Below, one piece after another: positions 8,087 through 44,185 of a DNA stretch of 64,000 bases. Where the stretch lies: the NCBI GenBank assembly GCA_902763185.1, contig CACWQT010000001.1, positions 74,722 to 138,721 of the forward strand, given 5' to 3'. A program made the translations under genes and the position numbers. The notes below the pieces were generated by a model that saw only the letters and a program-made list of their open reading frames with translations, made no database searches and was not told the origin of the DNA. Positions within the stretch are counted from its first letter, which is position 1. Every line of letters starts with the position of its first letter. The DNA is from an uncultured Rhodospirillales bacterium. Lineage in GTDB: Bacteria; Pseudomonadota; Alphaproteobacteria; RF32; CAG-239.

Positions 8087-9616
8087 ATGCAAAAACCTGT
8101 AATGCTTTTAATTTTGGACGGCTGGGGATATCGTGAAAAGACAACATCTGATAATGCCATAGAACAAGGAGATACACCAAATTGGCATTATTTGTTACAA
8201 AACTATCCGCATTGTTTTGTGGAAACATCAGGTTATGATGTCGGTCTTCCTGACGGGCAAATGGGCAATTCTGAGGTCGGACATACAAACCTCGGTGCCG
8301 GTCGCGTTGTTATGCAAGATTTACCCAAAATTGATTTGGCAATCAAAGAAGGTACATTAAAAACGAATCCGGTTGTTCGCCAGATGATTGAAAAATTAAA
8401 AGAAACAAAAGGCTCTTGTCACTTGATGGGGTTAATGTCACCCGGAGGTGTTCACTCGCACCAAAAACATATCGAAGCGATGTGTGCAATTTTGGCAGAA
8501 AATGGTATAAAGGTTAATGTTCACGCCTTTTTAGACGGTAGAGATACGCCACCACAGTCAGCTAAAGGCTTTTTAAGTGAGTTTGAAAAAAACATCAAAG
8601 ACCTGAATGGCGTTAAAGTCGCAACAATTTCCGGTCGTTTCTACGCCATGGACAGAGATAAACGTTGGGATAGAGTTGAAAAAGCGTATAACAATATTGT
8701 CTTGGCTGATGGCAAACGCTTTGCAACCTCTGATGAGGCTATCAGCGAATCCTATAAAGAAGGTGTTACCGATGAATTTGTTATTCCGGCAGTTATCGGG
8801 GATTATCAAGGCGCAAAAGACGGCGATGTTGTGTTAATGATTAATTTTAGAGCCGATAGAGCGCGTGAAATTCTGTATGCTCTAGGTGATAAAGAATTTA
8901 ATGGATTTGAAAGAAAGAAAATTATTCACTTTGCTGAGCTTGTCGGCATGGTTGAATATTCTGTTGATCACAATCGTTTTATGAAAACCATTTTTGCACC
9001 GGAGGCCTTGAAGAACATCTTTGGTGAAGTCGTTGCAAACCATGGTTTAACCCAACTTCGAATCGCAGAAACCGAAAAATATGCTCATGTTACGTTTTTC
9101 TTTAACGGTGGAGAGGAAAAAGAGTTTAAGGGTGAGGATAGAATCCTAATTAACAGCCCTAAAGTTGCTACATACGATCTTAAACCGGAGATGAGTGTTT
9201 ATGAGGTAACAGAAGCCTTAACCGATGCGATTGAACAACAAAAATATGATGTCATCATTTGCAATTTTGCTAACGGCGATATGGTCGGGCATACCGGTAT
9301 TATGGATGCTGCTCTTAAAGCGGTTGCTGCGGTTGATGATTGCTTGGGTCAGGTTTTAAGAGCCATTAAAAAAGTTAATGGTGTTTTATTGGTTACGGCT
9401 GATCACGGCAATGTAGAAAAAATGGTTGATGAACAAACCGGTGAGCCTTATACAGCACATACCGTCGGTAAAGTTCAGGCTGTTTTGTTTAATGCAGATA
9501 AAAACATTACATCCCTAAAAGACGGCAGATTGGCTGATATTGCTCCAACATTATTAGATTTAATGCAAATAGAAAAACCTCAAGAAATGACGGGAAATTC
9601 ACTTATTATTAAATAG
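8087..9616 (+). CDS. gpmI: 2,3-bisphosphoglycerate-independent phosphoglycerate mutase
   Basis: LLILDGWG, GNSEVGH, MSPGGVHSH motifs. ORF opens at 8021; the ATG at 8087 has a GGAGA SD and matches family N-termini. Confidence 0.9.
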   Translation: MQKPVMLLILDGWGYREKTTSDNAIEQGDTPNWHYLLQNYPHCFVETSGYDVGLPDGQMGNSEVGHTNLGAGRVVMQDLPKIDLAIKEGTLKTNPVVRQMIEKLKETKGSCHLMGLMSPGGVHSHQKHIEAMCAILAENGIKVNVHAFLDGRDTPPQSAKGFLSEFEKNIKDLNGVKVATISGRFYAMDRDKRWDRVEKAYNNIVLADGKRFATSDEAISESYKEGVTDEFVIPAVIGDYQGAKDGDVVLMINFRADRAREILYALGDKEFNGFERKKIIHFAELVGMVEYSVDHNRFMKTIFAPEALKNIFGEVVANHGLTQLRIAETEKYAHVTFFFNGGEEKEFKGEDRILINSPKVATYDLKPEMSVYEVTEALTDAIEQQKYDVIICNFANGDMVGHTGIMDAALKAVAAVDDCLGQVLRAIKKVNGVLLVTADHGNVEKMVDEQTGEPYTAHTVGKVQAVLFNADKNITSLKDGRLADIAPTLLDLMQIEKPQEMTGNSLIIK

Positions 9617-9623
9617 GAAACGA

Positions 9624-10862
9624 ATGAAACGGATATTAGTCTTTAGTGTAGCTCTTTTAAGTTTAAGCTGTTTTATGAGCAGTTTGAGCTGTGCTAAAGA
9701 CATATCCGTAAATGATGTTAAAAGAATTGAAGCGGAGGCAAAGCAAAAGGCCTTAGAGTCGAAACAGCTTCAAGCTCGAGCCATTCAACTCAATCTTGAG
9801 CTGTCTAAAATTGATAAAACCGTTATTACATTGGCAGATAAAATAAAAAACAATGAAAAGAAACTCTCTGAATTAGAAGACAATCTGGTTACCTTAAACA
9901 AAAATTTGAAAGACAAAGAAGCTAATTTTGCAAAAGAAAATAACTCGCTTGTGCAAACTTTAGCTGCTCTGCAAAATATGTCTTTAACCCCTTCCGAATC
10001 GGTTATTTTGCAACCGTTATCTCCTGTTGATATTATCCGAAGTGCTGTTTTGCTTAGAGAGACGGTGCCTTACTTAAGTCAAAAATCTTCTAAACTTAAA
10101 ATTGATTTAGATAATGTTTATAACCAAAAAAAGAAAATAGAAAATACTCTTTCCGATACAAAAAAACAAAAGCAGTTATTGGAACAGCAACAAGCTGAAA
10201 TGCGGCAATTGATGGCTAAAAAAACAAATTTAAGAAAAGAGGTAGAAACCAAAGGTGCAGAAACCCAAAAGCAAGCACAAAATTTATCGTCTAAAGCAAA
10301 AGATTTACGCGAATTGTTAGAAGAACTTGAACGACAGAAAGAAATTGCTCGCAAGAAAAAAGAAGAAGCTGAACGTTTGGCTCGCTTAAAACGACAGCAG
10401 GAAATGGCTCAAAAAGGCCTAGCTCACACCGTTGATAAAAAGACACACGCCAGTATCAAAAAGCAAGTTAGCGGCAATAGTTTCGCTCACGCTAAAGGGG
10501 CTTTAACCCGTCCTGTCAGCGGTCCCAAAGTTACAGATTACGGGCAAACAATCTCTAAAGGGGTTACTTCAAAAGGAATTGTTTATAAAACACGCTCTGA
10601 AGCTCAAGTTACATCACTTTTTGACGGAACGGTTATTTTTTCCGGTCCATTTAAAGGATATGGTAATATTATTATAGTAGAACATGGAGGTGGGTATCTT
10701 TCTCTTCTTGCCGGTCTCGGTCACATTGACTGCGATGTCGGGCAAAAGTTGTTAAGCGGAGAGCCTGTTGGCACAATGCCTAAGGGGAGCGACTCCAAAC
10801 TTTATGTAGAGATAAGAAAAGACAGACACCCCATTAATCCAACGCCTTGGATTGCCGGTTAA
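9624..10862 (+). CDS. EnvC-like murein hydrolase activator (coiled coil + M23 peptidase domain)
   Basis: Signal peptide, long coiled-coil region, C-terminal M23/LytM-like domain (GYGNIIIVEHGGGYLSL). Confidence 0.75.
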   Translation: MKRILVFSVALLSLSCFMSSLSCAKDISVNDVKRIEAEAKQKALESKQLQARAIQLNLELSKIDKTVITLADKIKNNEKKLSELEDNLVTLNKNLKDKEANFAKENNSLVQTLAALQNMSLTPSESVILQPLSPVDIIRSAVLLRETVPYLSQKSSKLKIDLDNVYNQKKKIENTLSDTKKQKQLLEQQQAEMRQLMAKKTNLRKEVETKGAETQKQAQNLSSKAKDLRELLEELERQKEIARKKKEEAERLARLKRQQEMAQKGLAHTVDKKTHASIKKQVSGNSFAHAKGALTRPVSGPKVTDYGQTISKGVTSKGIVYKTRSEAQVTSLFDGTVIFSGPFKGYGNIIIVEHGGGYLSLLAGLGHIDCDVGQKLLSGEPVGTMPKGSDSKLYVEIRKDRHPINPTPWIAG

Positions 10863-10882: not shown

Positions 10883-12172
10883 ATGAAAAAAAGTAAGTTA
10901 TTATTTATAGCCTTGTTTGCAGGATTATTGTTTAGTGCAACAAACGCTGTTGCTAAAGAAAAGAAAGATGACGCAGATACATATGAACTTCTGAACCTTT
11001 TTGGTGAAGTATTAGAGCGCACTAAAGTTTCTTATGTTGAAGAGGTGACAGATAAAAAGCTTATCGAATCGGCAATTAACGGGATGCTTTCTTCCCTTGA
11101 TCCACACTCCGGTTATTTAGACGCCGAAGGCTTTAAATATATGAGTGAACAAACCAAAGGTAAATTCGGGGGGTTAGGTATTGAGGTTACAATGGATAAT
11201 GGCCTTGTTAAAGTTGTTTCACCGATTGATGATACACCTGCCGCAAAAGCCGGCTTAAAAGCAGGTGATTATATTACCAATATTGACGATGAGACCGTTG
11301 TCGGCATGACCCTTAATGAAGCTGTCAGCAAATTGAGAGGTAAAATCGGCACAAAAGTAAAACTTTCTATTCGTCGCGTTAACTCTAAACCGATTGAAGT
11401 TACCATTGTCAGACAAGAAATTAAAATTCAGTCGGTTAAAAGTGAGGTAAAAGAAGATGCTATCAGTTATATTCGTATATCTTCTTTTACAGAGGATATT
11501 GATAAGTCTGTAACAGAGGCTATTGAAAAGGCAAAAAAGAAACTTAAAAATGAATTTTTAGGGATCGTGATTGATGTTCGTAATAATCCCGGTGGACTTC
11601 TTGACCAAGCAGTTGCCGTTTCTGATTTATTCTTAGAAAAAGGAGAAATTGTATCTACGCGTTCTCGTAACGAAAGTGATACGGTTAAATTTATGGCAAC
11701 TGAAGGCGATATTGCTAAAGGATTACCAATTGTTGTGCTTATAAATGAAGGGTCGGCTTCTGCGTCAGAAATTTTGGCAGGTGCACTCCAAGACCATCAT
11801 CGTGCCATCATTTTAGGTGAAAAATCATTTGGTAAAGGCTCGGTGCAAACAGTTATTCCGCTTAGGGATTACGGCGCCATGCGGATTACCACTGCGCGTT
11901 ATTACACGCCGTCCGGTCGCTCTATTCAAGCTAAAGGTATTGAGCCTGACATTGAGGTCAAACCGGCTAAAGTTGAAGAGTTAGAATCTTATGCACTTAA
12001 TATCAGCGAAGCAGAACTTAAAAATGCGCTCAAAAACGATAATGAAGAATCAAATGAAAAATCAAAGAAAAACAAAAAAAGCAAAGAAGATTTGGAAGAT
12101 TATCAGCTGACTCGCGCTTTAGACCTTGTAAAGGCTTTGGCTCTTTATGCTAATACATCTAATCAGGAATAA
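10883..12172 (+). CDS. ctpA: carboxy-terminal processing protease (S41)
   Basis: PDZ plus S41 catalytic region (GSASASEILAG, KSFGKGSVQT); ATG at 10883 has a GAAGGGAAAAAG SD (ORF opens at 10847). Confidence 0.85.
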   Translation: MKKSKLLFIALFAGLLFSATNAVAKEKKDDADTYELLNLFGEVLERTKVSYVEEVTDKKLIESAINGMLSSLDPHSGYLDAEGFKYMSEQTKGKFGGLGIEVTMDNGLVKVVSPIDDTPAAKAGLKAGDYITNIDDETVVGMTLNEAVSKLRGKIGTKVKLSIRRVNSKPIEVTIVRQEIKIQSVKSEVKEDAISYIRISSFTEDIDKSVTEAIEKAKKKLKNEFLGIVIDVRNNPGGLLDQAVAVSDLFLEKGEIVSTRSRNESDTVKFMATEGDIAKGLPIVVLINEGSASASEILAGALQDHHRAIILGEKSFGKGSVQTVIPLRDYGAMRITTARYYTPSGRSIQAKGIEPDIEVKPAKVEELESYALNISEAELKNALKNDNEESNEKSKKNKKSKEDLEDYQLTRALDLVKALALYANTSNQE

Positions 12173-12175
12173 TGC

Positions 12176-12664
12176 ATGCCACAACAATACAGACAATGTG
12201 CAAGCGCTATTGTTTTTAACCAAAAGGGTTTAGTTCTTTTGGGTAATCGTATTGATACCACAGATGATGCGTGGCAATTTTCGCAAGGTGGCATTGAGCA
12301 GGGAGAAACACCTGTTGTTGCCGCCAAGCGTGAATTGTTTGAAGAGATGAGTGTTACTTCTGTTATACCGATTTATTCAGACAACAAGCCCTTTCGTTAT
12401 GAATTTCCAGATGATGTAAAAGCAACTTTTCGTAAAAAAGGTATTATGACTAGCGGGCAGGATATTTATTTTTCTTTGTTCTATTTTAGTGGAAAAGAAG
12501 ATGAAATAAACATTCATACACCTAATCCGGAATTTATGGAATATAAGTGGGATACGCTTGATTTTGCCGTGCAAAATATTGTTGATTTTAAGAAAGAAGC
12601 TTATTCTTTTGCTGCCAAACTTGTTTATCCGTTGATTTGCCAATATCTTAAGCAGCTTACTTGA
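12176..12664 (+). CDS. rppH: RNA pyrophosphohydrolase (Nudix)
   Basis: Nudix box GGIEQGETPVVAAKRELFEE. Confidence 0.85.
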   Translation: MPQQYRQCASAIVFNQKGLVLLGNRIDTTDDAWQFSQGGIEQGETPVVAAKRELFEEMSVTSVIPIYSDNKPFRYEFPDDVKATFRKKGIMTSGQDIYFSLFYFSGKEDEINIHTPNPEFMEYKWDTLDFAVQNIVDFKKEAYSFAAKLVYPLICQYLKQLT

Positions 12665-13167
12665 TATTTCAAAAAAATTACCATAAATTATATTATGAGT
12701 TTGAAAAAGAGGCTAAAATGGATAATTTACCGGAAATTCGCGATATACATATACCTGACGGGGTTTCTTTTTTTCCTATTGCATATGGTTGGTGGGTTAT
12801 TTTGGTCAGTTTTATCGGAGCTTTTGTTTTAGTTAAGCTGATATTGCTGACTATTCGCACAAGTAAAAGAATTTACGCCCTTAGACAATTAAAAAACATT
12901 AATACGGAAAATCCGGTTATCGCGGCGATAAAATTTTCAGAATTGTTGCGGAGAGTTTGTCATTTCAAATTTAGGGAAGCAAGTGCTTTATATGGTAAGG
13001 AATGGATAGAGTTTCTCAACAATCGTGCTACACACAAAATTTCTGACGAATCTGCAAAACTTTTGATAAATGCACCGTTTATGAATATTGAAGATAAATT
13101 ATATTCGCAGCAAACTGCCGAAGATTTAAGAACTTTTTGTAAATACTGGATAGGAGCAAATTTATGA
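12661..13167 (+). CDS. DUF4381-like membrane protein (Bat operon accessory)
   Basis: Single TM after about 35 aa, position immediately upstream of batA; likely real start MDNLPEI at 12718. Confidence 0.55.
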   Translation: MIFQKNYHKLYYEFEKEAKMDNLPEIRDIHIPDGVSFFPIAYGWWVILVSFIGAFVLVKLILLTIRTSKRIYALRQLKNINTENPVIAAIKFSELLRRVCHFKFREASALYGKEWIEFLNNRATHKISDESAKLLINAPFMNIEDKLYSQQTAEDLRTFCKYWIGANL

Positions 13168-14168
13168 GCCATTTTCTTTATCCGGAAGCCTTTTGGTTAC
13201 TCGTTGTTCCTTTTGTTATTTACTTTTTATTGCCTAAAGTGCGCGGTCTTCATGGTGAAGCGCTTAAAGTCCCATTTATTGATGACCTTAAAAGCATTAA
13301 ACTAAAATCAGAACATCTACGTATTAGCCCATTAAACAGCAGGATCTTATTTTCGCTTAAATTTTTATACATTTTGACGATATGGACTCTTTTGGTTGTT
13401 GCGGCGGCGCGTCCGCAATATGCCGGCGAACCGCATCGCTTAAAGGCTGAAAACAGAGATATAATGCTCGTTATTGATATATCAAACTCTATGCTTCAAC
13501 CTGATTTTTATGCTCAAGGACATAGAATTGATAGAATGTCTGCAGTTAAAGCTGTTGTCAGCGCCTTTATAGAGAAGAGAACAGAAGATCGTGTCGGACT
13601 AGTTTTATTTGGTACACTTGCTTATTTGCAATCTCCTTTAACGTTTGATAAGCAGGCGGTTAAAGAGATTTTGCTTAATACTGATGCCGGTATGGCAGGA
13701 AACTCAACATCTATCGGAGATGCACTGGGAACAGCCTTAAAAAATCTCCAATCTGAGGAAAATAAAGATAATAAGGTGATCATATTGCTAACAGACGGCG
13801 AAAACAATGATGGCTCTCTTAGTATGGCTGAAGCAATTGATTTAGCTGAAAAAGAAGGTATAAAGGTTTATACAATAGGTGTTGGTGGAGGTGGAAACTT
13901 CATTAGCTCGTTATTTAGTTTGCGTAATAATGAATTTGATGAGGCAAGCCTAAAGGAATTGGCTAAAAGAACAAGAGGAAACTATTTCCAAGCTAAAGAC
14001 TTAAATACATTAGCTCAAGTTTATCAACGTATTGATGATTTGGAACCGCAAAGCAGTCAATCTAATGTTGTGCAAGAGATACGAGAATTATTTTATATAC
14101 CTCTGATGATTGCACTGTTTTTGTTGCTCGGTTTGTTGTTTTTACCAAGGAGAGCTTTAAATGATTGA
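13164..14168 (+). CDS. batA: BatA-like VWA domain membrane protein
   Basis: Two N-terminal TM segments, VWA MIDAS motif (DISNSM), C-terminal TM. Confidence 0.8.
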   Translation: MSHFLYPEAFWLLVVPFVIYFLLPKVRGLHGEALKVPFIDDLKSIKLKSEHLRISPLNSRILFSLKFLYILTIWTLLVVAAARPQYAGEPHRLKAENRDIMLVIDISNSMLQPDFYAQGHRIDRMSAVKAVVSAFIEKRTEDRVGLVLFGTLAYLQSPLTFDKQAVKEILLNTDAGMAGNSTSIGDALGTALKNLQSEENKDNKVIILLTDGENNDGSLSMAEAIDLAEKEGIKVYTIGVGGGGNFISSLFSLRNNEFDEASLKELAKRTRGNYFQAKDLNTLAQVYQRIDDLEPQSSQSNVVQEIRELFYIPLMIALFLLLGLLFLPRRALND

Positions 14169-16137
14169 GTTTTTGCAAAATTTTCATTTTTTACGTCCTT
14201 GGATGTTACTATTTTTGGTTATTCCTATTGGCTTGCTATTTAAGCATTTAAGCTTGACCAGCCGTGGCTCATCGTGGGAAAATATTTGCGATAAGAACCT
14301 TTTAGATTTTTTGCTTGTTGCGGATAAGACGCTTAAAAAGATCTCTGTTAAAAAATATATCTATACCGGACTTATCGCAATGATTCTAGCGGCTGCCGGC
14401 CCTGCTTGGAAAAAAGTAGAGGTTCCAACATTTGAAGTTGAGAATCCGGCAATGATTATTTTGAGCTTAGCAAAAGATATGCAGCTCACCGATGTTACAC
14501 CATCGCGGTTGGAACGTGCTAAATTTATGATTTCCGACATAACCGAGAACATACCAGAAGGACAATTCGGTTTAGAGGTTTACTCACAAGAACCATATAT
14601 CATTACCCCTCTTACCGAAGATGTGCAGATAATAAAAAGTTTATTACCGCAAATTGTGCCAAACATTGTTCCTGATAATGGCGATAGATTAGATAGAGCT
14701 ATTGCACTTGCTTTAGAAAGATTTAAGGCCGCAGGCTATGCAAAAGGGAACATTGTTATTTTCGCTTCTGATGTCGGACAAAGATTAGACCTCGCTTTAG
14801 ATAAAATCAAAGAAGCCGAGCAAATGAATTATACGATAAACATTGCAGATACTTCTTATTCCGGTAATGAAAAATTACAAATGCTTGCCGAAAAGGGTAA
14901 TGGTGTGTATTTTAAGGTAAAAGACGGTAATATGCAAATAATATTGGATAAGCTGCGTATTGAAGATAAAGATAAAATGACATTAAGTCAGAATTTGAGG
15001 TCAAATTATTTAGACTATGGATATTATCTTGTATTTATATCCCTTTTGTGTATGCTACCGTTTTTTAGACGCGGATTACTTGTTTTAATCTTTTGCTGTT
15101 GCTTTGTCGGACAAGCCAATGCAGGATTTTTATTAAACGACAACCAAGAAGGTTTTAGGCTCTTTAATGAAGAACAATATGAAGCAGCTTTAGAAAAATT
15201 TAAAGACAGTGTTTGGCGCGGTATTTCCTTGTATAAGCTAGAAAAAAATGAAGAAGCTTTGCAAGAGTTTTCTAAAGAACAGAGTGAAACAGCCATTTAT
15301 AATGCCGGTGTAGTGTTAACTAAATTATGCAAATATGATAAAGCTCTGAGCGCCTTTAACGCAGTTTTGAAACAAAACCCGAATAATGAAGACGCCGCTT
15401 ACAACAAACAAGTGTTGGAAGAGCTTTTTGTTAAAGCAAAAGAAAAGCCGGAATTATTAAATTGTCAAAATCAACAGCAAGATAATCAAAATAATCAGCA
15501 AGATCAAGATAACCAGCAGGAGCAAAATAACCAAAATCAGAGTTCTAATCAAAATAACGATAATCAACAAAATCAAGATGATTCAGAACAAGAACAACAG
15601 CAACAGGGTGAACAAAATCAGCAATCTGAGAATAATCAGCAAAATAATTCCGATAATCAACAGCAGAATAATGAACAAAAACAATCAACAAATGAAAATC
15701 AGGCAAATCAGCCGCAAGATAATGCTAATCAAAACGACCAACAACAAAACGGTCAGGAACAGCAAAATGAAAACAATTCTTCCGGTTCAAATGGTTCTTC
15801 TGAAAATCAAGATAATGCCAACAATCCATCTTCTCAAAAAAGTGATAATAAGCCGGATGAGAATAATGATACCCCGACAGAGGCTGATAATGACAATGGT
15901 GACGAAAATAAATCACAAAATGAGAATGGAGAGAATAACAATGGCACCGAAGCTCAAACTGAGGATCAGGATGTCGGCTTAATGAACGCTAAACAAGGAA
16001 ACGAAGACACTCAATATGATGATAAAGTTTTAGCTGTGCGTCGTAAATATAGGGAAATTCCCGAAGATGTCGGTGGCTTGCTTAGAGAATTTATAAAAAA
16101 GGAACATTTAAAAGGTAGGTATAGAAATGAAAATTAA
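14161..16137 (+). CDS. BatB/BatC-like fusion: VWA domain + TPR repeats + Q/N-rich low-complexity linker
   Basis: N-terminal TM and VWA region, central TPR repeats (YNAGVVLTKLCKYDKALSAFNAVLKQNPNNEDAAYNK), then about 190 aa of Q/N/D/E residues. Confidence 0.75.
   Translation: MIEFLQNFHFLRPWMLLFLVIPIGLLFKHLSLTSRGSSWENICDKNLLDFLLVADKTLKKISVKKYIYTGLIAMILAAAGPAWKKVEVPTFEVENPAMIILSLAKDMQLTDVTPSRLERAKFMISDITENIPEGQFGLEVYSQEPYIITPLTEDVQIIKSLLPQIVPNIVPDNGDRLDRAIALALERFKAAGYAKGNIVIFASDVGQRLDLALDKIKEAEQMNYTINIADTSYSGNEKLQMLAEKGNGVYFKVKDGNMQIILDKLRIEDKDKMTLSQNLRSNYLDYGYYLVFISLLCMLPFFRRGLLVLIFCCCFVGQANAGFLLNDNQEGFRLFNEEQYEAALEKFKDSVWRGISLYKLEKNEEALQEFSKEQSETAIYNAGVVLTKLCKYDKALSAFNAVLKQNPNNEDAAYNKQVLEELFVKAKEKPELLNCQNQQQDNQNNQQDQDNQQEQNNQNQSSNQNNDNQQNQDDSEQEQQQQGEQNQQSENNQQNNSDNQQQNNEQKQSTNENQANQPQDNANQNDQQQNGQEQQNENNSSGSNGSSENQDNANNPSSQKSDNKPDENNDTPTEADNDNGDENKSQNENGENNNGTEAQTEDQDVGLMNAKQGNEDTQYDDKVLAVRRKYREIPEDVGGLLREFIKKEHLKGRYRNEN
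15466..15990 (+). repeat. cryptic low-complexity CAA/CAG/AAT/GAT-rich coding region (Q/N-rich)
   Basis: Long run of Gln/Asn/Asp codons within the 14161-16137 CDS; no exact tandem unit. Confidence 0.7.
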
Positions 16138-17890
16138 AGTATATTTTTTAAGTTTGTTTTTTTTCCTAATGACATTTTATGTTCAAGCTAAAGAACTTAA
16201 CCTTTCTGTTGATAAAAAAGTATTGGTTGAAGGTGACACACTAACGCTTACCCTTGAGTATGACGGCGACAGCAACAACCAACCGGATTTAAGCAAATTA
16301 AGTAAAGATTTTAATATTGTATCTACTTCAACATCTCAGCAGTTTAGTTTTGTTAACGGTGCCGCTTCTCAAATAAAAAAATGGTCTTTCGGGTTAAGGC
16401 CTTTACACAAAGGAAAAATAAATATTCCCGCTATAAAATTGGATAATCTGTATTCTAACAGCGTTGATATTGAAGTTAAAGAGATGACCGATGTCGCTTA
16501 TGTTCCAGATAGCCGAGAAAATACAAATGCGCCTTATTTTGAAATTAAACAGGAATTTGATGTAAAACACCCCTATGTGCAGCAACAAGTTAATTTTTTT
16601 GTGCACATATATGACAGCATCGGTTTACAAAACGGCGCACCTACCATCAGTGCTGATGCACAAAAAGACTGGATTATTGTTCCTTTAACTGATAAACCGA
16701 TTGTTCGGCAGGAAACAATCAATCATAAACGAATGAATATTGAAACATATGCTTTTGCTGCATTTCCTCAGAAGGGTGGTACGCTAGAAGTTCCGCAGGT
16801 TTCTTTTGAAGGTTTTTATGTTAAAGATGCGACTTTTGATTTTCCAAATTTTGATGATGACATCAGCTTTTTCGGTGTTAATTTCCATAATGTATTCGGG
16901 CAACAGGTTCCGGTTCGGATGAAAACAAAAGCACAGACCATTGATGTTCGTCCGATTCCTGCAAACTCCTTAAGTGCATCATGGATGCCTTTAAATAATT
17001 TGGAATTATCGGCTAAATGGGATGAAAAGTCTAAATTTAAGACAGATGAAGCTATTACACGCACAATAACTCTTAAGGCTACCGGTACGACAGAAAGCAT
17101 GCTTCCTAAAATAACTTTTCCAGAAGCTGACGGATTTAAGCAATATCCAGAAAACCCAACCGTTTCTGAGCAAATTATCAATGGAAAAATTGTTACCACC
17201 GCAATTTTTAACAATGTCTATATCCCTCAAAAATCCGGCAGATTAACTATTCCACCGCTTAAAATGCAATGGTTTAATGTAGATACACAAAAATTACAAA
17301 TAACGTCTATTCCTCAAGAAGTAATTGATATATTACCAAGTGAGAAAGAGTTAGTTGCCAAACAAAATGTTTATTCAAAAGATACCGAACCTCTTGATAA
17401 TAAAGAAAATAATCCTTTATCGCCAGATACACACGACCAATCTGACTTGGCTCAAGATTTAAGCTCATTAAAATCATCTTTAGCCAATTTAGGTATTGCA
17501 GAAAAAGCGATTACCCCTCTTCTCTTTTTATTAGGAATATTGGTCTTTATTGCTATTATATCTTTGAAGCAGTGTAGAAAAAACAAACTGCGCAATGAAA
17601 TTATCCGAGCCATAAAAAAACATGATTATAAAAGGGCTAAAGAAAATTTGCTTATTTGGGCGCAACACAAATTCGGACAAATGTCTATTCAAAATTTTAA
17701 TGATGTATCTAAATGTGTGCAAAATACTGATTTTTCTGAACAACTTTCTCTATTAAATAAAATCTTGTATTCAAACAGTGAAGATTTATTTGATGGTGTT
17801 AAATTTATTGAAATTTTGAAAAAGATTGATAAACTTAAATGCAAACAAGCAGAAAAAAATAATGCAGTTTTACCAAATCTTTACGATTAA
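16127..17890 (+). CDS. batD: BatD-like oxygen-tolerance protein
   Basis: Signal peptide, large periplasmic domain, C-terminal TM (LLFLLGILVFIAIISL) plus cytoplasmic tail; operon position after batA/batB. Confidence 0.7.
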   Translation: MKIKVYFLSLFFFLMTFYVQAKELNLSVDKKVLVEGDTLTLTLEYDGDSNNQPDLSKLSKDFNIVSTSTSQQFSFVNGAASQIKKWSFGLRPLHKGKINIPAIKLDNLYSNSVDIEVKEMTDVAYVPDSRENTNAPYFEIKQEFDVKHPYVQQQVNFFVHIYDSIGLQNGAPTISADAQKDWIIVPLTDKPIVRQETINHKRMNIETYAFAAFPQKGGTLEVPQVSFEGFYVKDATFDFPNFDDDISFFGVNFHNVFGQQVPVRMKTKAQTIDVRPIPANSLSASWMPLNNLELSAKWDEKSKFKTDEAITRTITLKATGTTESMLPKITFPEADGFKQYPENPTVSEQIINGKIVTTAIFNNVYIPQKSGRLTIPPLKMQWFNVDTQKLQITSIPQEVIDILPSEKELVAKQNVYSKDTEPLDNKENNPLSPDTHDQSDLAQDLSSLKSSLANLGIAEKAITPLLFLLGILVFIAIISLKQCRKNKLRNEIIRAIKKHDYKRAKENLLIWAQHKFGQMSIQNFNDVSKCVQNTDFSEQLSLLNKILYSNSEDLFDGVKFIEILKKIDKLKCKQAEKNNAVLPNLYD

Positions 17891-17928
17891 ACGGCATTGT
17901 ATTGAATATGTAGTAACAAACTAATGGA

Positions 17929-18807
17929 GTGTCTATGCTCTTAAAAAGATTTTTTTGCGGACTGGTTGCCTTAGTTCTTTTGGCTTGTGGTGGTATGCTT
18001 TTAAATAGCCCTCATTTAAGCAAAATGATTATCAGCGGCATTTTTTTGATTGGTGGTGCCACTCTTGGTCATGTTGCTATCAAACAAACTTTGCCTTGTT
18101 ACAGTTTTTGGATAACACTTATTGCCATTGCTTTAGCTTATGCGCTTTTTTCTTCTAAAATAAACAGTGCTTCACCTGAAGAAGATATTGATACAACCTC
18201 AACTTCTATTGTAGCAGAAGCCCCTTCTGCAAGTGTTGAACAGACTGAACATAAAGTTCTTCCGCAAAAAATGAAGCGTAAACGGAAATCAACCGGTTTT
18301 AAATTATCATCTTATCCCAGAGTTAGCGGAAGTGCTACAGTTATTCATGCTCATGTGTTTTATATCGGTGGCAGATACGTAAGATTGTTCGGTGTAGATG
18401 CCCCTGATAATGATCAAATTTGTTCCAGCGCAACAGGCAGTTCTTATAATTGTGGGGAAGAAGCTGCTTCTTGGGTTCGCGGTTGGATAGATAAAAATCC
18501 GATAGACTGCTATTTGTTAAAGGTAGAACCACAAGGTCAAGATTTGGCAACTTGTGTTTGGGGTGAATATGACATCGGTGCCGGTTTGGTTGGTGCCGGA
18601 TGGGGAATAGCCAATATCCGCGAAACGCACATTTATGAGCCTTATCAAGCAAAGGCTCAGAGCCAATCATCCGGATTATGGCAAGGTTCTTTTTATAACC
18701 CTGAGGATTGGCGTGATATTAAACGGAGCAGAAACAATTTCAAAATCCAACGAAGAAGATCTTCTAAAGACGGTGGTCTCTTTAATTTCGGATCATGGTT
18801 TAAGTGA
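17929..18807 (+). CDS. membrane-anchored thermonuclease (SNase-like) family protein
   Basis: Two N-terminal TM helices then an SNase-like domain (RLFGVDAPDND ... GWGIANIRETHIYEPY); resembles Rhizobiales ExoI-type nucleases. Confidence 0.65.
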   Translation: MSMLLKRFFCGLVALVLLACGGMLLNSPHLSKMIISGIFLIGGATLGHVAIKQTLPCYSFWITLIAIALAYALFSSKINSASPEEDIDTTSTSIVAEAPSASVEQTEHKVLPQKMKRKRKSTGFKLSSYPRVSGSATVIHAHVFYIGGRYVRLFGVDAPDNDQICSSATGSSYNCGEEAASWVRGWIDKNPIDCYLLKVEPQGQDLATCVWGEYDIGAGLVGAGWGIANIRETHIYEPYQAKAQSQSSGLWQGSFYNPEDWRDIKRSRNNFKIQRRRSSKDGGLFNFGSWFK

Positions 18808-19271
18808 TGCAACATAACAATCAAATACTCTGCAAAACAGAGCAACAAACCAAGCTTTTGGCTGAACAATTTGCAAAAATAGCAAAAAAAGGTGATGTTT
18901 TTGCGCTTTTTGGGACATTAGGTGCCGGCAAAAGTGTTTTTTCACGTTATTTTATTCAAAAATTAACCGATGTAACGGATGTTCCCAGTCCAACTTTTAC
19001 ATTGTTACAAACATACGAGGCTCAAAATTTTGAGATTTATCATTATGATATGTATCGTCTGAAGTCTCCCGATGAGGCGTATGAATTAGATGTCGAAGAG
19101 GCTTTTTACGGCGCAGTCAGCTTGGTAGAGTGGCCGGAAAAAATTTTACCGTTATTACCAAAAGATATTTGGAAAATTACAATATTTGTTAATGGCACAG
19201 AACGGCTTTTTGATATTGAGACTAATAATATTGAAAAATATAACAGATTAAAGGATGCCGGTCTTGCTTAA
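18804..19271 (+). CDS. tsaE: tRNA t6A biosynthesis ATPase TsaE
   Basis: Walker A GTLGAGKS; YjeE-size; PSPTFTL motif. Confidence 0.8.
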   Translation: MMQHNNQILCKTEQQTKLLAEQFAKIAKKGDVFALFGTLGAGKSVFSRYFIQKLTDVTDVPSPTFTLLQTYEAQNFEIYHYDMYRLKSPDEAYELDVEEAFYGAVSLVEWPEKILPLLPKDIWKITIFVNGTERLFDIETNNIEKYNRLKDAGLA

Positions 19272-27119: not shown

Positions 27120-28217
27120 ATGATAATTAAAGGGCTAAACTGTTTGGGTTTAATGGGAACTTCTACCTTTGGTGGTGTGGAGCTTTCGCTTGTTCGCACA
27201 GATGGCTTGGACATATTAGACAGGAAAATGTCACGCCTTGTCCCCTACCCTGACGAAATGAAAGAAAAAATTCGTGCTGTTTTGGGGTTAAAGCGCGATA
27301 TTGATGACAATGAACAAAAATTACACGCCGTCGATATGGCTGTATCTGAGTTTTATGTGCAACTTATAAAGGAATTTGCCCGTGATTGCGGTGAACCGAT
27401 TGATGTTGTAGGGGTTGAAGGCATTACCATTTTGCATAATCCCAATATTTGCTATACCTATCAGCTTGGTAACGGCAGATATATTGCCGAACAAACAGGA
27501 ATTAAAACAGTTACGCACTTTCGAAATGCCGATATTTGTTCGGGTGGACAAGGAACACCTATTTCTTCTGCTTATTTTAATGCCATATCTGCCAATGAGG
27601 TTAAGCCGATTGCTTATGTTAATATCAGCGGCAAGGCAAGTATTACATGGATAGGTTCTTTTGGTGAAATAATCGGTTTCGATTGCGGTGCCGGTGATAA
27701 TTTTATCAATAACTGGACGGCAAAGCACGCCAATATGGATAACGATTACAATGGACGTTTAGCAATTACCGGTAAAGTGCACGAAAAAATCGTAAACACT
27801 TTAATGCATCATAAATTCTTTGCTAAGTTCCCACCAAAATCAGCGTATACGGGAATATTTGCTGATAAAGCGGAGCATTTAGAGGGATTATCCTTAGAAG
27901 ATGGGGCTGCAACAGCCACTGCTTTTGTGGCTGAGGCAGTTTGCTATTCTATCTGTTTATATCTGCCGGAATTGCCTAAAAAAATTGTTATCTGCGGTAA
28001 AGGTTCCAAGAATCCGACTTTAGTCAGGTTTATCCGTCAACGTGTTCCCAGCATAGAAGTTGTTACCAGTCAAGAAGAAGGTATTCCTGCGGATACGGTT
28101 AATGCTGAAGTTAATGCCTTTTTAAGCGCCAGAACACTTTATTCTCTACCGATTACATTCCCGTCGACAACCGGCGTTTTAGAACCTATGTGCGGAGGTG
28201 AACTTTATGAAGTCTAG
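27120..28217 (+). CDS. anmK: anhydro-N-acetylmuramic acid kinase
   Basis: GLMGTSTFGGVE N-terminus typical of AnmK; divergent from tyrS as in many alphaproteobacteria. Confidence 0.8.
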   Translation: MIIKGLNCLGLMGTSTFGGVELSLVRTDGLDILDRKMSRLVPYPDEMKEKIRAVLGLKRDIDDNEQKLHAVDMAVSEFYVQLIKEFARDCGEPIDVVGVEGITILHNPNICYTYQLGNGRYIAEQTGIKTVTHFRNADICSGGQGTPISSAYFNAISANEVKPIAYVNISGKASITWIGSFGEIIGFDCGAGDNFINNWTAKHANMDNDYNGRLAITGKVHEKIVNTLMHHKFFAKFPPKSAYTGIFADKAEHLEGLSLEDGAATATAFVAEAVCYSICLYLPELPKKIVICGKGSKNPTLVRFIRQRVPSIEVVTSQEEGIPADTVNAEVNAFLSARTLYSLPITFPSTTGVLEPMCGGELYEV

Positions 28218-28977
28218 TAAATCTTTAACAAAATCAACGATTGAAGTCAAAAATATTGTTAAAACATACGATAACATAGAGGCTGTAAAAAATGTTTCGT
28301 TTAGCACTCACATCGGGGAAATTATTGCACTTCTTGGTCCTAACGGTGCCGGAAAATCAACTTTGATGAATATGATTGCTGGTTTTTTAAGCCCAACTTC
28401 TGGTGGCGTTTTTGTTAATGGAAATAATGTTGCCGAAAAAGATTTATTGTCGAAAAAAGACATTGGTTTTTTACCGGAAGGTGCGCCGATGTATGCTGAT
28501 ATGACAGTTAATCAATTTTTAAAGTACTTTATTGAGCTTAAACTTAATCTCGATGATGAAAATTCGAATAAAAAACAAATTTATGCAGACGAATTAGTGA
28601 GAATAAAAAAGGTCGCTAAGATAGAAAATGTTTCCAGTCAGCGTATTGAGACGTTATCTAAGGGATATTTAAGGCGCGTTGGATTTGCTGCCAGTCTTAT
28701 CGGGAATCCACCAATATTACTTTTGGATGAACCGACTGACGGTTTAGATCCTAACCAAAAAGAGCATATGCGCCAACTTATTTCTGAGATGAGTAAAGAT
28801 AAAACCATTCTTATATCCACACACTTATTGGATGAGGCAGAAACACTGGCAAATAGAATTATTTTGATAAACAAAGGTCGTGTTGTGGCAGATGGCGAAC
28901 TTGGAGATATTTTAAGCAAGGCTAAGAAAAAAACGCTCGCTGAGGCTTTTAAGTTTTTAACAAACAAAGGAGCATAA
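28198..28977 (+). CDS. ABC transporter ATP-binding protein (GldA-like)
   Basis: Walker A GPNGAGKST, ABC signature, Walker B LLLDEPTDGLD. Confidence 0.85.
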   Translation: MNFMKSSKSLTKSTIEVKNIVKTYDNIEAVKNVSFSTHIGEIIALLGPNGAGKSTLMNMIAGFLSPTSGGVFVNGNNVAEKDLLSKKDIGFLPEGAPMYADMTVNQFLKYFIELKLNLDDENSNKKQIYADELVRIKKVAKIENVSSQRIETLSKGYLRRVGFAASLIGNPPILLLDEPTDGLDPNQKEHMRQLISEMSKDKTILISTHLLDEAETLANRIILINKGRVVADGELGDILSKAKKKTLAEAFKFLTNKGA

Positions 28978-28978
28978 G

Positions 28979-31900
28979 ATGAACAGCATTAAAACCGTTA
29001 TTAAATATGAATTGATACGCTATTTTACCTCCCCTTTGGCCTATGTCTATCTTATCAGCTTTTTACTCTTAAGCGGTTCTTGCGCTATCTATTTCGGACA
29101 TTTCTTTGTTAACGATGCGGCAAACTTATGGGGATTATTTGATTATCAACCATGGATTTATTTGTTATTTATTCCAGGTATTGCCATGCGTTCTTGGGCT
29201 GAGGAATTTCGTTCCAAAAGCGTTATTTTACTTTTAACGACGCCGGTATCCCTACCCTGTTTGGTTTGGGGTAAATTTTTGGCTTCTTGGTTATTTGCCA
29301 TCATTGCTATTACTCTCACCTTTCCTTTTTGGATAACGGTTAATATATTTGGTTCACCGGATAATACGGTTATTTTCGTTAGTTATTTGGGGTGTTTTGT
29401 TTTGAGCGGCGCAATGCTTGCCATTTCTCAAACAATGTCTGCTTTGACTAAAAACGCGGTCATTTCTCTGGTCTTGTCTGTTTTTGTTAATTTATTATTC
29501 TTTTGGAGCGGATTTGAGTATGTGCTGTTTTGGGCAAGAGAATTATTTAGTGATGTGATTGTTGATACGATTGTTTCTTTTAGCTTTTTAACGCATTTCT
29601 CAACACTTAGTCGAGGATTGATAGAGCTTCGCGATATTGTATTCTTCGGTTCTTTGATAGTATTTTTTAATTTAATTACAATTGCTGTTATAAGCCTTAA
29701 AACTAAAGGATCTTCCGGACTTGTCGCCAATTCTAATGTTAAGCAAAGCGGTATTGTCTTTTTGCTATTTTTTATTTGTTTTTTCGGATTAAATATCATT
29801 GCCAATAATGTTTTGCGGCAAATTAGTTATGATTTTACCGAAGAAAAATATTTAAGCCTTACCAAAAATACTAAAGATATTTTGCGTAAACTAGACAGGC
29901 CGGTTGTTGCAAAGCTTTATTATTCACCGATTTTGGGAAAAAGAAATCCTGAGTTAATGGTGCTTTTTGACCAGATTAAGCTCATGCTCAAGCAATATCG
30001 AGCTTATAGTAACGGTAAATTCGACTATCGCATTTATACACCGCAATTTTTGGATAAGATAGAAGATCGCGCGATTGCGGATGGTTTGCAGCCTATACCA
30101 CTGATAGATATCAATCAGAATGCTCTTTTCGGTATAACCTTTTCCGATAATCTGATGAATAAATCTGTTATCCCGTTCTTTTCTTTAGAAAGGCTAGGTT
30201 TCTTAGAACAAGACTTCACAACCAATATTTATAAATTGCAACATAAAAAGAAAAAAATAGGGCTATACAGCACACTTCCAGTGATGGGAAATGTTCGCCA
30301 AGGTAATGTAATGATTAATCGTTGGGAAATAATGAATAAAATCAGCGAATTATACGACATTAAAGAAGTTAAAAAGGCAGAAGATTTTAGTGATAATTTT
30401 GATGCGTTTATGTTAATTCATCCTTATGCCTTAAGTGACGATATCATAAAAGCCCTCAAAAGACAAAGAAAGGTTCTTTTGCTCTTAGATGTTGCAGATA
30501 ATGCATCACGTATTTATTCACCAGAACACGGCGCTTTTATCTCATCGGATTTGGGTGAATTATTTGATTTTTGGGGTATTGACTTTTTGGGAGGAAATGT
30601 TGTTGCTGATTTTGACAATTCCATAACCGTTGATGAAACCATCAATTACAAAACAAACCCATCTTTTACTCAGGATTTATTACAATTTAAGACATCATTT
30701 AATGATTTTAACAGAAATCATCGGATAACTTACAAGCTCAATAATATTCTTTTTTCATCTGCTTCCGTTGTTTATCCTAAAAGGGACGGTAAAAAGAATT
30801 ACGTTTCCTTCTTTCCTCTTATCAAAACGAGTCCTAATTCTATGCTGATGTCTGCTGCTTTTGCAAAGCAAAATGTTCATCCGCGTGAAGTTTTAGCAAA
30901 TTTCAAGCCAAATAATCAGGTTTTTGTGTTGGCTGCAGAATTTTTAAGCAATAATGCTTCGCAGCCTTTTGATGTGATTGCTGTCGGCGATACAGATTTT
31001 ATTTATGATAATTTTTGGACTAAGGAAAAGAAGTTTTTAGAGGCTTCATATAATGTGCCGTTTTTTGATAGTGCCAATTTTATTTTAAATGCTCTTGATT
31101 ATTTAACCGACAATGATGATTTAATCAGCCTGCGCGGTAAGGGATTAAAAATAAGACAACTTGATAAAATTGATAAAATGCGTAAGCTTAATACATATAA
31201 ATACAAATTAAAAGAAAGTGATATTTTTGACGCTATTGATGGGATTAAACAGCAACTTGTCGAAATTACGGCAAAACGAAATTTTGAACAAAGAGATACT
31301 TTTACCGCCGATGAACTGGCCATTATCGGTAAAATTCGCCATGAATTATCTGATTTAAGACAGCAATTAAGCAATTTAAGAATAAATGCCAATAATGATA
31401 TAAACAATCTGATTGTTAAGGTTAAGTTCTTTAATATCTATTTTGTTGCATTGCTGTTTTTGATATTTATCGGGGGATTTAGTCTATATCAGAAGAAGTC
31501 GCGTTTATCCTCATTAAATCGTATTTTTGCAGTAAATAAAAAAACCTGCATATTGATGCTATATACTATACTGATTGTTGCTGTGGCTCTTTTGACCATC
31601 TATGTAGACAATAAGAGTAATATTATTCAATATGAGGATAAGCCTGTTTTTGATGATTTTGCCCAAAAAATTAATAAAATACAGAAAATTGAACTTAAAG
31701 GAAGTCAAAATACTCTTTCTTTTGTGCATACAGATAAAAATATATGGGTTTTGGAAAATGAGTCGGATTTGCCGGTTTATCAGGAGCGAATCCGCAAATT
31801 CTTATCTAATATTCACAATATGACTTTTGCTGAAAAAAAATCCGATAGAGTTGAAGATATGAAATACTTTGGCTTTGTTTCGCTTCAAGATAAGAAATCA

Positions 31901-34908: not shown

Positions 34909-34999
34909 AAAAAAGCTCCCATAAAGTTATTTTATTATATCATAATTAAGACTCTTATAATAAAATATTAAAAAATAACTTAACCACAGGAAAAGAAAA

Positions 35000-37261: not shown

Positions 37262-37262
37262 A

Positions 37263-44163: not shown

Positions 44164-44185
44164 ACTCCAATAATTTTTACTTAAT

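What the first reader, a model, noticed from the sequence alone, without database searches (positions are those of the whole stretch)
12661..17890. Bat-like (aerotolerance) operon with a BatB-TPR fusion carrying a roughly 190-aa Q/N-rich prion-like linker
DUF4381, BatA (VWA), a VWA+TPR fusion protein and BatD are co-linear. The MoxR ATPase and DUF58 that usually precede them are not present here. The fusion protein contains an extraordinary low-complexity stretch (QNQQQDNQNNQQDQDNQQEQNNQNQSS... through ...NGTEAQTEDQ) encoded by CAA/CAG/AAT/GAT runs at 15466-15990. Such prion-like Q/N domains are rare in bacteria. The region is also a likely hotspot for length variation by slippage.
Basis: seen in the sequence. 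Interest (0 to 1): 0.55.

Follow-up and report, generated by a model that had tools for sequence, protein, structure and literature searches.

The report
Acidic disordered spacer in BatB-BatC fusion
The Q/N-rich stretch is real, but it is the usual disordered, strongly acidic spacer found in BatC-type envelope proteins of hundreds of gut Alphaproteobacteria (and, as a zwitterionic Q/N/K-rich version, in Legionella), so it is neither a prion-like oddity nor a slippage hotspot.

Summary
Four translationally overlapping genes, DUF4381, BatA (VWA), a VWA+TPR fusion and BatD, lie at 12718-17890. The fusion carries about 175 low-complexity residues (nt 15466-15990) with 54% Q+N. No MoxR or DUF58 gene is in the 64-kb window, nor within about 8 kb in 80 related species.

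The stretch is also 20% D+E, has net charge about -31, and has no aromatic and one aliphatic residue. A PAPA-type score is -0.13, against 0.10-0.12 for the Sup35 and Ure2 controls. AlphaFold2 predicts disorder. Every full-length homologue carries an equivalent spacer of 93-261 aa, followed by a conserved C-terminal motif (YDEEALxxQRRYREIPEDxGGLLREFIKKEY). Acidity and lack of hydrophobic residues are constant, whereas N, Q and A/G/P content track genomic GC. Stand-alone BatC proteins of Legionella have the same layout.

The DNA has no perfect repeat longer than 12 nt. It is identical in three independent assemblies, and strain variants differ only by substitutions.

The best reading is a periplasmic flexible tether of the BatC module, here fused to BatB, which is a known kind of fusion. 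It is a new member of a known kind and of low interest.

The parts
12718..13167 (+). DUF4381 membrane protein (149 aa from the ATG; the mechanical ORF starts at the TTG at 12661), with one TM helix
   Evidence: Pfam PF14316 2.5e-25; called as 149 aa in identical contigs; TM at aa 28-46
13164..14168 (+). BatA-like VWA membrane protein (334 aa), 3 TM helices, intact MIDAS motif DISNS
   Evidence: Pfam VWA 4.8e-27; NCBIfam BatA_Lepto 1.7e-45, below its cut-off; TM layout; sequence
14161..16137 (+). BatB-BatC fusion protein (658 aa): TM1, TM2, VWA, TM3, RRG, TM4, TPR, acidic spacer, C-terminal motif
14413..15012 (+). BatB-type VWA domain (aa 85-284); its MIDAS DxSxS is replaced by S-L-A-K-D
   Evidence: VWA_2 7.6e-10; PDB 3ibs 'BatB' 8.8e-20 and 4jdu 3.2e-19; pLDDT about 90
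15013..15123 (+). Fusion junction (aa 285-321): TM3, FFRRG, then TM4. TM4 corresponds to the signal peptide of stand-alone BatC and ends in a conserved A-x-A (A319, A321)
   Evidence: BLASTP of stand-alone P0195 aa 5-122 against fusion aa 307-422; A321 invariant and A319 at least 90% conserved
15124..15465 (+). BatC-type TPR domain (aa 322-435)
   Evidence: TPR_2 8.3e-9; helices with pLDDT above 90; relatives hit NCBIfam BatC_Lepto
15466..15825 (+). Spacer part A (aa 436-555): hypervariable, 70% Q+N over aa 436-540, acidic, predicted disordered
15826..15996 (+). Spacer part B (aa 556-612): acidic D/E/N-rich, predicted disordered. Conserved as well as the folded domains among close relatives. 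Clade consensus NTPxxANxDxGxExKSxNxxG
   Evidence: 98%/89% identity against 97%/86% for the domains; consensus
15997..16137 (+). Conserved C-terminal two-helix motif (aa 613-658, ...YDDKVLAVRRKYREIPEDVGGLLREFIKKEHLKGRY...) plus stop codon
   Evidence: Most conserved segment of the protein (0.79); helices 621-631 and 637-650; always C-terminal in 83 representatives; no PDB relative
16127..17890 (+). BatD (587 aa): signal peptide, BatD domains, TM, cytoplasmic DUF7939
   Evidence: PF13584 1.1e-31, PF25607 2.7e-10; TM at 462-480

Best explanation
The low-complexity stretch is the intrinsically disordered, strongly acidic, hydrophilic spacer that belongs to the BatC module of Bat-type envelope systems.

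In this lineage BatC is fused to the C-terminus of BatB. The former BatC signal peptide survives as TM4, so the TPR domain, the spacer and the C-terminal motif face the periplasm. This location is inferred.

The spacer acts as a flexible tether. My estimate is a typical reach of roughly 12-15 nm and a contour length of about 60 nm. It lets the conserved, basic two-helix C-terminal motif (REIPEDxGGLLRxFI) reach a partner away from the inner-membrane-anchored TPR/VWA complex. The partner is unknown; candidates are the MIDAS site of BatA, BatD, or a peptidoglycan or outer-membrane component.

Selection acts on bulk properties: presence, length above about 90 aa, net negative charge and absence of hydrophobic residues. 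Q/N richness is simply what such a spacer looks like in a 35%-GC genome.

Shown here: the anatomy, the family-wide conservation, the predicted disorder, the dependence of composition on GC, the lack of prion propensity and the lack of length polymorphism.
Inferred: the periplasmic location, the tether role and the partner.
For: 1. Disorder. AF2 with 88 sequences gives pLDDT about 29 and no secondary structure for aa 437-619, flanked by confident VWA/TPR domains and two C-terminal helices.

2. Family trait. All 88 homologues that could be parsed have a spacer of 93-261 aa, with Q+N 31-56%, D+E 16-31%, hydrophobic residues at most 5% and net charge -10 to -44. The same holds in 70 species-level genomes.

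3. Composition tracks GC while acidity does not. Spearman rho against locus GC is N -0.76, A/G/P +0.85 and Q +0.58, but net charge per residue only -0.19 (not significant). High-GC relatives have A/G/P/Q/D/E spacers with the same C-terminal motif.

4. It is the BatC module. Stand-alone BatC-like P0195 aligns to fusion aa 307-422 (signal peptide to TM4, then TPR) and aa 557-653. Legionella israelensis has MoxR-DUF58-DUF4381-BatA-BatB-BatC-BatD, and its BatC is signal peptide + TPR + (KQQQN)n spacer + IPDDPGGL motif.

5. Part A of the spacer evolves faster than the domains (76%/63% against 97%/86% identity). The C-terminal motif is the best conserved segment.

6. Topology. The VWA domain of a BatA-type protein (BB0173) was shown experimentally to face the periplasm (PMC5700661). 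The positive-inside pattern here agrees.

7. batB-batC fusions are already documented (PMC3557215).
Against: - No experiment or structure shows what the spacer or the C-terminal motif binds. The motif has no solved relative.
- Periplasmic location is inferred from homology and the positive-inside rule, not measured.
- Part B of the spacer is conserved in sequence, so at least that part may be a specific binding or metal-binding element rather than a passive tether.
- Legionella spacers are zwitterionic rather than acidic, so net negative charge is not universal to BatC.
- The function of Bat systems as a whole is unresolved. Leptospira bat mutants had no phenotype (PMC3557215).
Confidence: 0.6

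Rival explanations
1. One reading: a prion-like or amyloid-forming (or condensate-forming) Q/N domain that switches the Bat complex between heritable states.
For: 54% Q+N over about 175 aa, predicted disordered. A composition-only log-odds trained on Sup35 and Ure2 is strongly positive (+150 bits). Combined N+Q-rich disordered regions are rare in bacteria: 251 of 1.86e7 proteins in PMC6400439.
Against: - Yeast-type prion domains are depleted in charged residues (PMC8409284). This stretch has 23% charged residues, net charge per residue -0.18, no aromatic and one aliphatic residue, against 22 aromatic residues in Sup35N.
- The PAPA-type score peaks at -0.13 and 0 of 108 homologues exceed 0.05, while the Sup35 and Ure2 controls pass.
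- Q/N content dissolves into A/G/P in GC-rich relatives while acidity persists.
- The inferred periplasmic location lacks the ClpB-type disaggregase that prion propagation in E. coli requires (my own knowledge, not tested here).
Confidence: 0.04
2. A polyanionic functional element: the D/E/N/Q-rich segment binds divalent cations (Mg2+ or Ca2+), for example buffering or delivering metal to the VWA MIDAS sites, or it repels the anionic envelope to keep the C-terminal motif extended.
For: Net negative charge is conserved in every alphaproteobacterial relative (net charge per residue -0.05 to -0.23). Part B (PDENNDTPTEADNDNGDENK...) is as conserved as the folded domains. The partner BatA keeps an intact MIDAS.
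Against: No recognisable Ca-binding motif (EF-hand or DxDxDG register) was found by inspection. Legionella BatC spacers are charge-neutral K/E/Q/N repeats. There are no metal-binding data.
Confidence: 0.15
3. A non-functional filler: a low-complexity expansion tolerated between two functional modules and produced by mutational bias.
For: Part A is poorly conserved in sequence (top-residue frequency 0.30, 22% gaps). Its composition follows genomic GC. Spacer length varies 93-261 aa.
Against: The spacer was never lost or shorter than about 90 aa in the roughly 160 relatives parsed, out of 351 species-level genomes that encode a relative. Hydrophobic residues are excluded (at most 7%) and net charge is always negative. 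Length is stable among close strains despite 19-25 substitutions. A spacer of comparable length is kept in stand-alone BatC of another class.
Confidence: 0.15
4. A sequencing or assembly artefact.
For: Low-complexity DNA is generally error-prone.
Against: There are zero nucleotide differences over 1977 nt in two further independent assemblies. The exact protein lies on at least 6 contigs. The frame is intact and followed by the most conserved motif of the protein.
Confidence: 0.01

Closest known systems
Canonical proteobacterial Bat-type operon, e.g. Legionella israelensis MoxR-DUF58-DUF4381-BatA-BatB-BatC-BatD (locus L089)
   Same: Same order of DUF4381, BatA (VWA), BatB (VWA), BatC (TPR + low-complexity spacer + IPxDxGGL motif) and BatD/DUF7939.
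   Different: Here BatB and BatC are one polypeptide. MoxR and DUF58 are not adjacent. The spacer is acidic and non-repetitive, rather than a zwitterionic pentapeptide tandem repeat.
Bacteroides aerotolerance (BatI) operon, BatA-E; solved BatB VWA domain, PDB 3ibs and 4jdu
   Same: The VWA domain is homologous to the solved BatB domain (8.8e-20 and 3.2e-19). BatA, BatC-type TPR and BatD components are present.
   Different: No BatE (TPR+SH3) gene lies in the cluster. The VWA MIDAS in the fusion is degenerate (SLAKD instead of DxSxS). An aerotolerance role is unproven, and was not found in Leptospira (PMC3557215).
Documented batB-batC fusions (Leptospira biflexa, Borrelia, Spirochaeta thermophila, Francisella tularensis Schu S4)
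   Same: The same kind of gene fusion is reported in PMC3557215.
   Different: This one is presumably an independent alphaproteobacterial lineage. I did not compare sequences with those fusions.
Yeast prion domains (Sup35 N, Ure2 N) and the Clostridium botulinum Rho prion-like domain
   Same: Q/N-rich, low complexity, predicted disordered.
   Different: 23% charged residues against 4-11%; no aromatic residues against 22 in Sup35N; PAPA-type score -0.13 against +0.10 and +0.12. Inferred periplasmic rather than cytoplasmic.
Periplasm-spanning disordered or extended linkers (TonB Pro-rich spacer, FtsN Q-rich linker, LpoA/LpoB linkers); comparison from my own knowledge
   Same: A long hydrophilic, non-globular segment connects an inner-membrane anchor to a distal binding module. 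This is the proposed working analogy.
   Different: No homology. The distal partner of the Bat C-terminal motif is unknown. The analogy was not tested here.

Membership tests
Bat-type (Bacteroides aerotolerance-like) gene cluster | BatA-type membrane VWA protein with a MIDAS motif | tested here: met
   Pfam VWA 4.8e-27; NCBIfam BatA_Lepto 1.7e-45, below its species-specific cut-off; DISNS motif in the sequence; 3 TM helices
Bat-type (Bacteroides aerotolerance-like) gene cluster | BatB-type VWA domain | tested here: met
   Profile hit to PDB 3ibs 'BatB' 8.8e-20 and 4jdu 3.2e-19; VWA_2 7.6e-10. The MIDAS DxSxS is not conserved (SLAKD).
Bat-type (Bacteroides aerotolerance-like) gene cluster | BatC-type exported TPR module | tested here: met
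   TPR_2 8.3e-9; aligns with stand-alone BatC-like P0195, including its signal peptide and C-terminal motif; relatives hit NCBIfam BatC_Lepto at about 1e-8, below its cut-off
Bat-type (Bacteroides aerotolerance-like) gene cluster | BatD protein | tested here: met
   PF13584 1.1e-31 plus DUF7939
Bat-type (Bacteroides aerotolerance-like) gene cluster | Adjacent MoxR (AAA_3) ATPase and DUF58 genes | tested here: not met
   None in the 64-kb window. None next to the cluster in L003-L005 or in 80 species loci with +/-8 kb flanks, by a Walker-A heuristic plus neighbour identification. Present in the Legionella comparator. Presence elsewhere in this genome could not be tested.
Bat-type (Bacteroides aerotolerance-like) gene cluster | BatE (TPR + SH3) gene | tested here: not met
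   The gene after BatD is a membrane SNase-like protein followed by TsaE
Bat-type (Bacteroides aerotolerance-like) gene cluster | Role in aerotolerance or envelope integrity | not testable with these tools
   Needs genetics; published results conflict (PMC3557215, PMC5700661)
Yeast-type prion-like domain | Q/N enrichment in a low-complexity region | tested here: met
   54-55% Q+N over 171-175 aa; crude PLAAC-style LLR +150 bits
Yeast-type prion-like domain | Intrinsic disorder | tested here: met
   AF2 pLDDT about 29 and no secondary structure over aa 437-619
Yeast-type prion-like domain | Depletion in charged residues (PMC8409284) | tested here: not met
   D+E 20%, fraction of charged residues 0.23, net charge per residue -0.18, against a charged fraction of 0.04 (Sup35N) and 0.11 (Ure2N)
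Yeast-type prion-like domain | Positive experimentally derived prion propensity (PAPA above 0.05) | tested here: not met
The official PAPA tool was not run.
Yeast-type prion-like domain | Soft amyloid core (pWALTZ/PrionW) | not tested
Proxy only: no aromatic and one aliphatic residue in 171 aa.
Yeast-type prion-like domain | Self-propagating aggregation | not testable with these tools
   Needs ThT, SDD-AGE or C-DAG assays, or in-cell propagation assays
Slippage-prone contingency repeat | Long perfect tandem repeat in the DNA | tested here: not met
   The longest perfect repeat is 12 nt (2 x 6) or CAA x 3; the longest homo-amino-acid run is Q x 4. TRF finds only weak arrays of 1.9-3 copies at 15465-15576.
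Slippage-prone contingency repeat | Length polymorphism among close strains | tested here: not met
   Full-length members of three 90%-identity clusters have uniform lengths (658, 655, 666). Variants with 19-25 substitutions have no indel. There is one 3-codon indel against a 97%-identical relative and none against an 85%-identical one.

The most novel reading that the evidence does not exclude
The BatC spacer plus its invariant C-terminal motif (R-x-x-P-E-D-x-G-G-L-L-R-x-F-I) could be a periplasm-spanning tether. Its acidic P-E-D tip would plug into the intact MIDAS site of BatA, or dock on BatD or the cell wall. This would give the first concrete mechanism for the long-enigmatic Bat complexes.

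In this gut alphaproteobacterial lineage the module would work without an adjacent MoxR/DUF58 pair. The BatB-BatC polyprotein might be cut at the conserved A-x-A site (A319-N-A321|G) by signal peptidase I.
Probability: 0.15. Interest if true: 0.5.

Novelty: new member of a known kind. Interest (0 to 1): 0.2.

Why it matters
The main value is as a correction. A striking Q/N-rich tract that a composition-based predictor would flag as prion-like is, in evolutionary context, a charge-conserved disordered spacer whose Q/N flavour simply follows an AT-rich genome. The case is a useful caution for prion-domain surveys of bacterial and metagenomic proteomes.

Secondarily, the analysis defines the general layout of the BatC module: signal peptide or TM anchor, TPR, hydrophilic spacer of about 90-260 aa, then a conserved IP(E/D)DxGGLL two-helix motif with no solved relative. 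It also shows that a large clade of uncultured gut and rumen Alphaproteobacteria keeps DUF4381-BatA-BatBC-BatD uncoupled from MoxR/DUF58. Both points are testable handles on a widespread envelope system whose function is still unknown.

Tried and rejected
- A word-indexed search with the 55-aa C-terminal segment returned only 6 short fragments and was uninformative. It was replaced by a profile search of 1.84e9 representatives.
- The promoter and terminator scan of 12000-19000 found 23 and 5 sites, against 24.3 and 5.0 expected. It gives no information on operon boundaries.
- The PDB profile search with the C-terminal motif gave nothing better than E = 0.09.
- I searched the supplements of Harrison 2019 for VWA, Bat and TPR terms, to see whether its top multi-phylum 'prion-predicted' TPR family (A0A1F3NRB5) is BatC. 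There were no hits, so the link stays untested.
- P. aeruginosa Arc2 (PA4317-23; contains MoxR and a VWA protein; defends against a T6SS toxin; bioRxiv 10.1101/2021.08.22.457286) may be the same kind of operon. I had no sequences to test this, so it remains a lead only.
- I looked by eye for an EF-hand or DxDxDG register in spacer part B and found no convincing match.
- I considered AF2 on a BatA plus C-motif chimera.
- I could not determine whether MoxR and DUF58 exist elsewhere in this genome.
Full report
**1. Observation**

The region holds four + strand genes whose ends overlap by 4, 8 and 11 nt:
- DUF4381 at 12718-13167. The mechanical ORF begins at a TTG at 12661, but gene callers use the ATG, giving 149 aa.
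- A BatA-like VWA protein at 13164-14168.
- A 658-aa VWA+TPR protein at 14161-16137.
- BatD at 16127-17890.

Pfam assignments are strong (DUF4381 2.5e-25; VWA 4.8e-27; VWA_2 7.6e-10 with TPR_2 8.3e-9; BatD 1.1e-31 with DUF7939).

The low-complexity stretch is aa 436 to about 610 (nt 15466-15990, 175 aa). Its composition is N 48, Q 47, D 18, E 17, S 15, with only 4 K/R. No other ORF in the window exceeds 28% Q+N in any 60-aa window, against 73% here, so this is not a proteome-wide bias.

The gene is nucleotide-identical in two further independent metagenome assemblies, and the exact protein sits on at least 6 contigs. It is therefore not an artefact.

None of the ORFs scanned across the 64-kb window is a MoxR (AAA_3) or DUF58 protein.

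**2. What the protein is**

A profile of the family matches the solved VWA domain of 'BatB' (PDB 3ibs, 8.8e-20) and an 'aerotolerance-related membrane protein' (4jdu, 3.2e-19).

A stand-alone BatC-like protein from a Legionellales MAG (P0195, 261 aa) aligns with the fusion in two blocks:
- Its N-terminal signal peptide and TPR domain align with aa 307-422.
- Its C-terminus aligns with aa 557-653.

The fusion is therefore BatB (TM1, TM2, VWA, TM3) joined through a short cytoplasmic FFRRG loop to a complete BatC module, whose former signal peptide is now TM4. The A-x-A at the end of TM4 (A319, A321) is conserved or invariant, so a signal-peptidase site may be retained; this is an inference.

batB-batC fusions are already described in Leptospira biflexa, Borrelia, Spirochaeta thermophila and Francisella (PMC3557215).

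A BatA-type protein, BB0173, was shown experimentally to expose its VWA domain to the periplasm (PMC5700661). The positive-inside pattern here agrees. I therefore infer that the VWA, TPR, spacer and C-terminus are all periplasmic.

**3. The spacer in evolutionary context**

A search with the N-terminal 434 aa found 583 homologues at E below 1e-5. The named ones among the top 120 are uncultured Alphaproteobacteria.

Every full-length homologue extends about 130-300 aa past the TPR domain. In the 88 that could be parsed automatically:
- The spacer is 93-261 aa.
- Q+N is 31-56% and D+E is 16-31%.
- Hydrophobic residues make up at most 5%.
- Net charge is -10 to -44.

The spacer is followed by the best-conserved segment of the whole protein, YDEEALAxQRRYREIPEDxGGLLREFIKKEYxKDRY.

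A scan of one genome per species found relatives in 351 species, from rumen, colon and human-gut MAGs. In 70 of the 80 loci fetched, N content falls with locus GC (rho -0.76), A/G/P rises (+0.85) and Q rises (+0.58). D+E stays at 14-28%, hydrophobic residues at 7% or less, and net charge per residue is always negative and not correlated with GC.

High-GC relatives carry A/G/P/Q/D/E spacers before ...VPDDPGGLLRARI....

A profile of the C-terminal motif finds only 83 representative proteins among 1.84 billion, and the motif is always at the extreme C-terminus. It has no relative in the PDB.

Legionella israelensis shows the canonical operon MoxR-DUF58-DUF4381-BatA-BatB-BatC-BatD. Legionella BatC proteins consist of a signal peptide, a TPR domain, a (KQQQN)n, (NKEQQ)n or (DKEQQ)n spacer, and then ...WLRxIPDDPGGLxREKF.

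A hydrophilic Q/N-containing spacer is thus a standard part of BatC modules. The window's protein sits near the high end for Q+N (0.54; maximum 0.56) and for negative charge.

**4. Is it prion-like?**

By composition alone, yes. A crude Sup35/Ure2-trained log-odds gives +150 bits over the spacer, so PLAAC would very probably flag it.

However, yeast-type prion domains are depleted in charged residues (PMC8409284). This stretch differs clearly:
- D+E is 20%, the fraction of charged residues is 0.23 and net charge per residue is -0.18.
- It has no aromatic and one aliphatic residue, whereas Sup35N has 22 aromatic residues.

The spacer peaks at -0.13, and none of 108 homologues exceeds 0.05.

AF2 with 88 sequences gives pLDDT about 29 and no secondary structure across aa 437-619, with two helices at 621-631 and 637-650.

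Together with the GC-dependent composition and the inferred periplasmic location, the prion reading is unlikely (about 4%). It is not experimentally excluded.

**5. Is it a slippage hotspot?**

- TRF finds only weak arrays of 1.9-3 copies at 15465-15576.
- The longest perfect repeat is 12 nt, the longest identical-codon run is CAA x 3, and the longest homo-amino-acid run is Q x 4.
- Full-length members of three 90%-identity clusters have uniform lengths.
- Two strain variants with 19 and 25 substitutions, 10 of them inside the spacer in each, have no indel.
- A 97%-identical relative differs by one 3-codon indel, and an 85%-identical relative by none.

Length does drift over long timescales (93-261 aa across the family). 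Legionella spacers, by contrast, are true tandem repeats.

**6. Substructure of the spacer**

- Part A (aa 436-555) evolves faster than the folded domains: 76% and 63% identity, against 97% and 86%.
- Part B (aa 556-612, PDENNDTPTEADNDNGDENKSQNENGENNNGTEAQTEDQ...) is as conserved as the domains among close relatives (98% and 89%). It has a recognisable clade consensus.

Part B may be a specific linear motif rather than a passive linker.

**7. MoxR and DUF58**

The unit DUF4381-BatA-BatBC-BatD is invariant in order in 80 species loci. In one clade it follows ctpA-rppH, as in the window. In a second clade it follows a roughly 416-aa gene; in one such relative (L004) a tyrS gene lies upstream.

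No MoxR-type Walker-A ORF lies within 8 kb. Whether moxR and DUF58 lie elsewhere in these genomes could not be tested.

**8. Verdict**

The finding is a correct description of a Bat-type cluster with a BatB-BatC fusion. The 'extraordinary prion-like linker' is the family's ordinary disordered spacer in its AT-rich, strongly acidic form.

The most likely mechanism is a flexible periplasmic tether that presents the conserved C-terminal motif to an unknown partner. This is an inference, with confidence about 0.6 for the overall reading.

Novelty: a new member of a known kind. Interest: low (0.2).

Noticed in passing
window 14449-14481 (fusion aa 97-107) vs 13464-13496 (BatA aa 101-111): The VWA domain of the BatB-BatC fusion has lost the MIDAS DxSxS signature (AMIILSLAKDM; S102, D106 and M107 are conserved in the clade). 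BatA keeps DISNS. High-GC relatives still have DLSRT, so the MIDAS seems to decay within the gut clades.
   Followed up: partly
window 15103-15123 (fusion aa 315-321): A conserved A-x-A (A319 at least 90% conserved, A321 invariant) ends TM4, exactly where the signal peptide of stand-alone BatC ends. The fusion might be processed by signal peptidase I into BatB and BatC parts.
   Followed up: partly
L089 (Legionella israelensis) 9001-9831; proteins P0238, P0251, P0210, P0217: Legionella BatC spacers are near-perfect tandem pentapeptide repeats ((KQQQN)n, (NKEQQ)n, (DKEQQ/R)n, up to about 25 copies). They are zwitterionic and may be single-alpha-helix-like. Unlike the window's spacer, they look truly slippage-prone.
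   Followed up: partly
window 17929-18807: A membrane-anchored protein with a weak SNase (staphylococcal nuclease) domain always follows BatD and precedes tsaE in the clade that shares the ctpA-rppH context, and also in a few more distant relatives. It may be co-transcribed with the Bat genes.
   Followed up: partly
window 34000-46700: The genes rlmN, parB, parA, a 207-aa ORF, mnmG (gidA), mnmE and rho lie on the - strand, and GC skew turns negative from about 34 to 46 kb before rising again. This may reflect coding-strand bias or proximity to a replication origin or terminus.
   Followed up: no
window 46000-52300: This is the lowest-GC part of the window (0.28-0.31). It holds a 524-aa ORF with no Pfam hit (49209-50783) and a PMT_2-type glycosyltransferase (50780-52315, - strand). 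It may be an acquired or surface-glycan locus.
   Followed up: no
protein P0128 (374 aa, from the representative library): This protein joins an unrelated N-terminus (P-loop-like GANGSGKSN) to a Q/N/D/K-rich stretch and a perfect copy of the Bat C-terminal motif. It is either an assembly or frameshift chimera, or a case of module shuffling.
   Followed up: no
window 28198-32443: An ABC ATPase gene is followed by a 1154-aa protein that combines DUF7088, ABC_transp_aux (GldG-like) and DUF4340 domains. It is an unusually large fused auxiliary component of an uncharacterised ABC system.
   Followed up: no
literature: PMC6400439 Table 2: In Harrison's 2019 survey of bacterial prion-like proteins, the prion-predicted family spanning the most phyla is a 'tetratricopeptide repeat protein' (A0A1F3NRB5). 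It may be BatC, which would mean this spacer type has already been counted as 'prion-like'. I could not verify this.
   Followed up: partly
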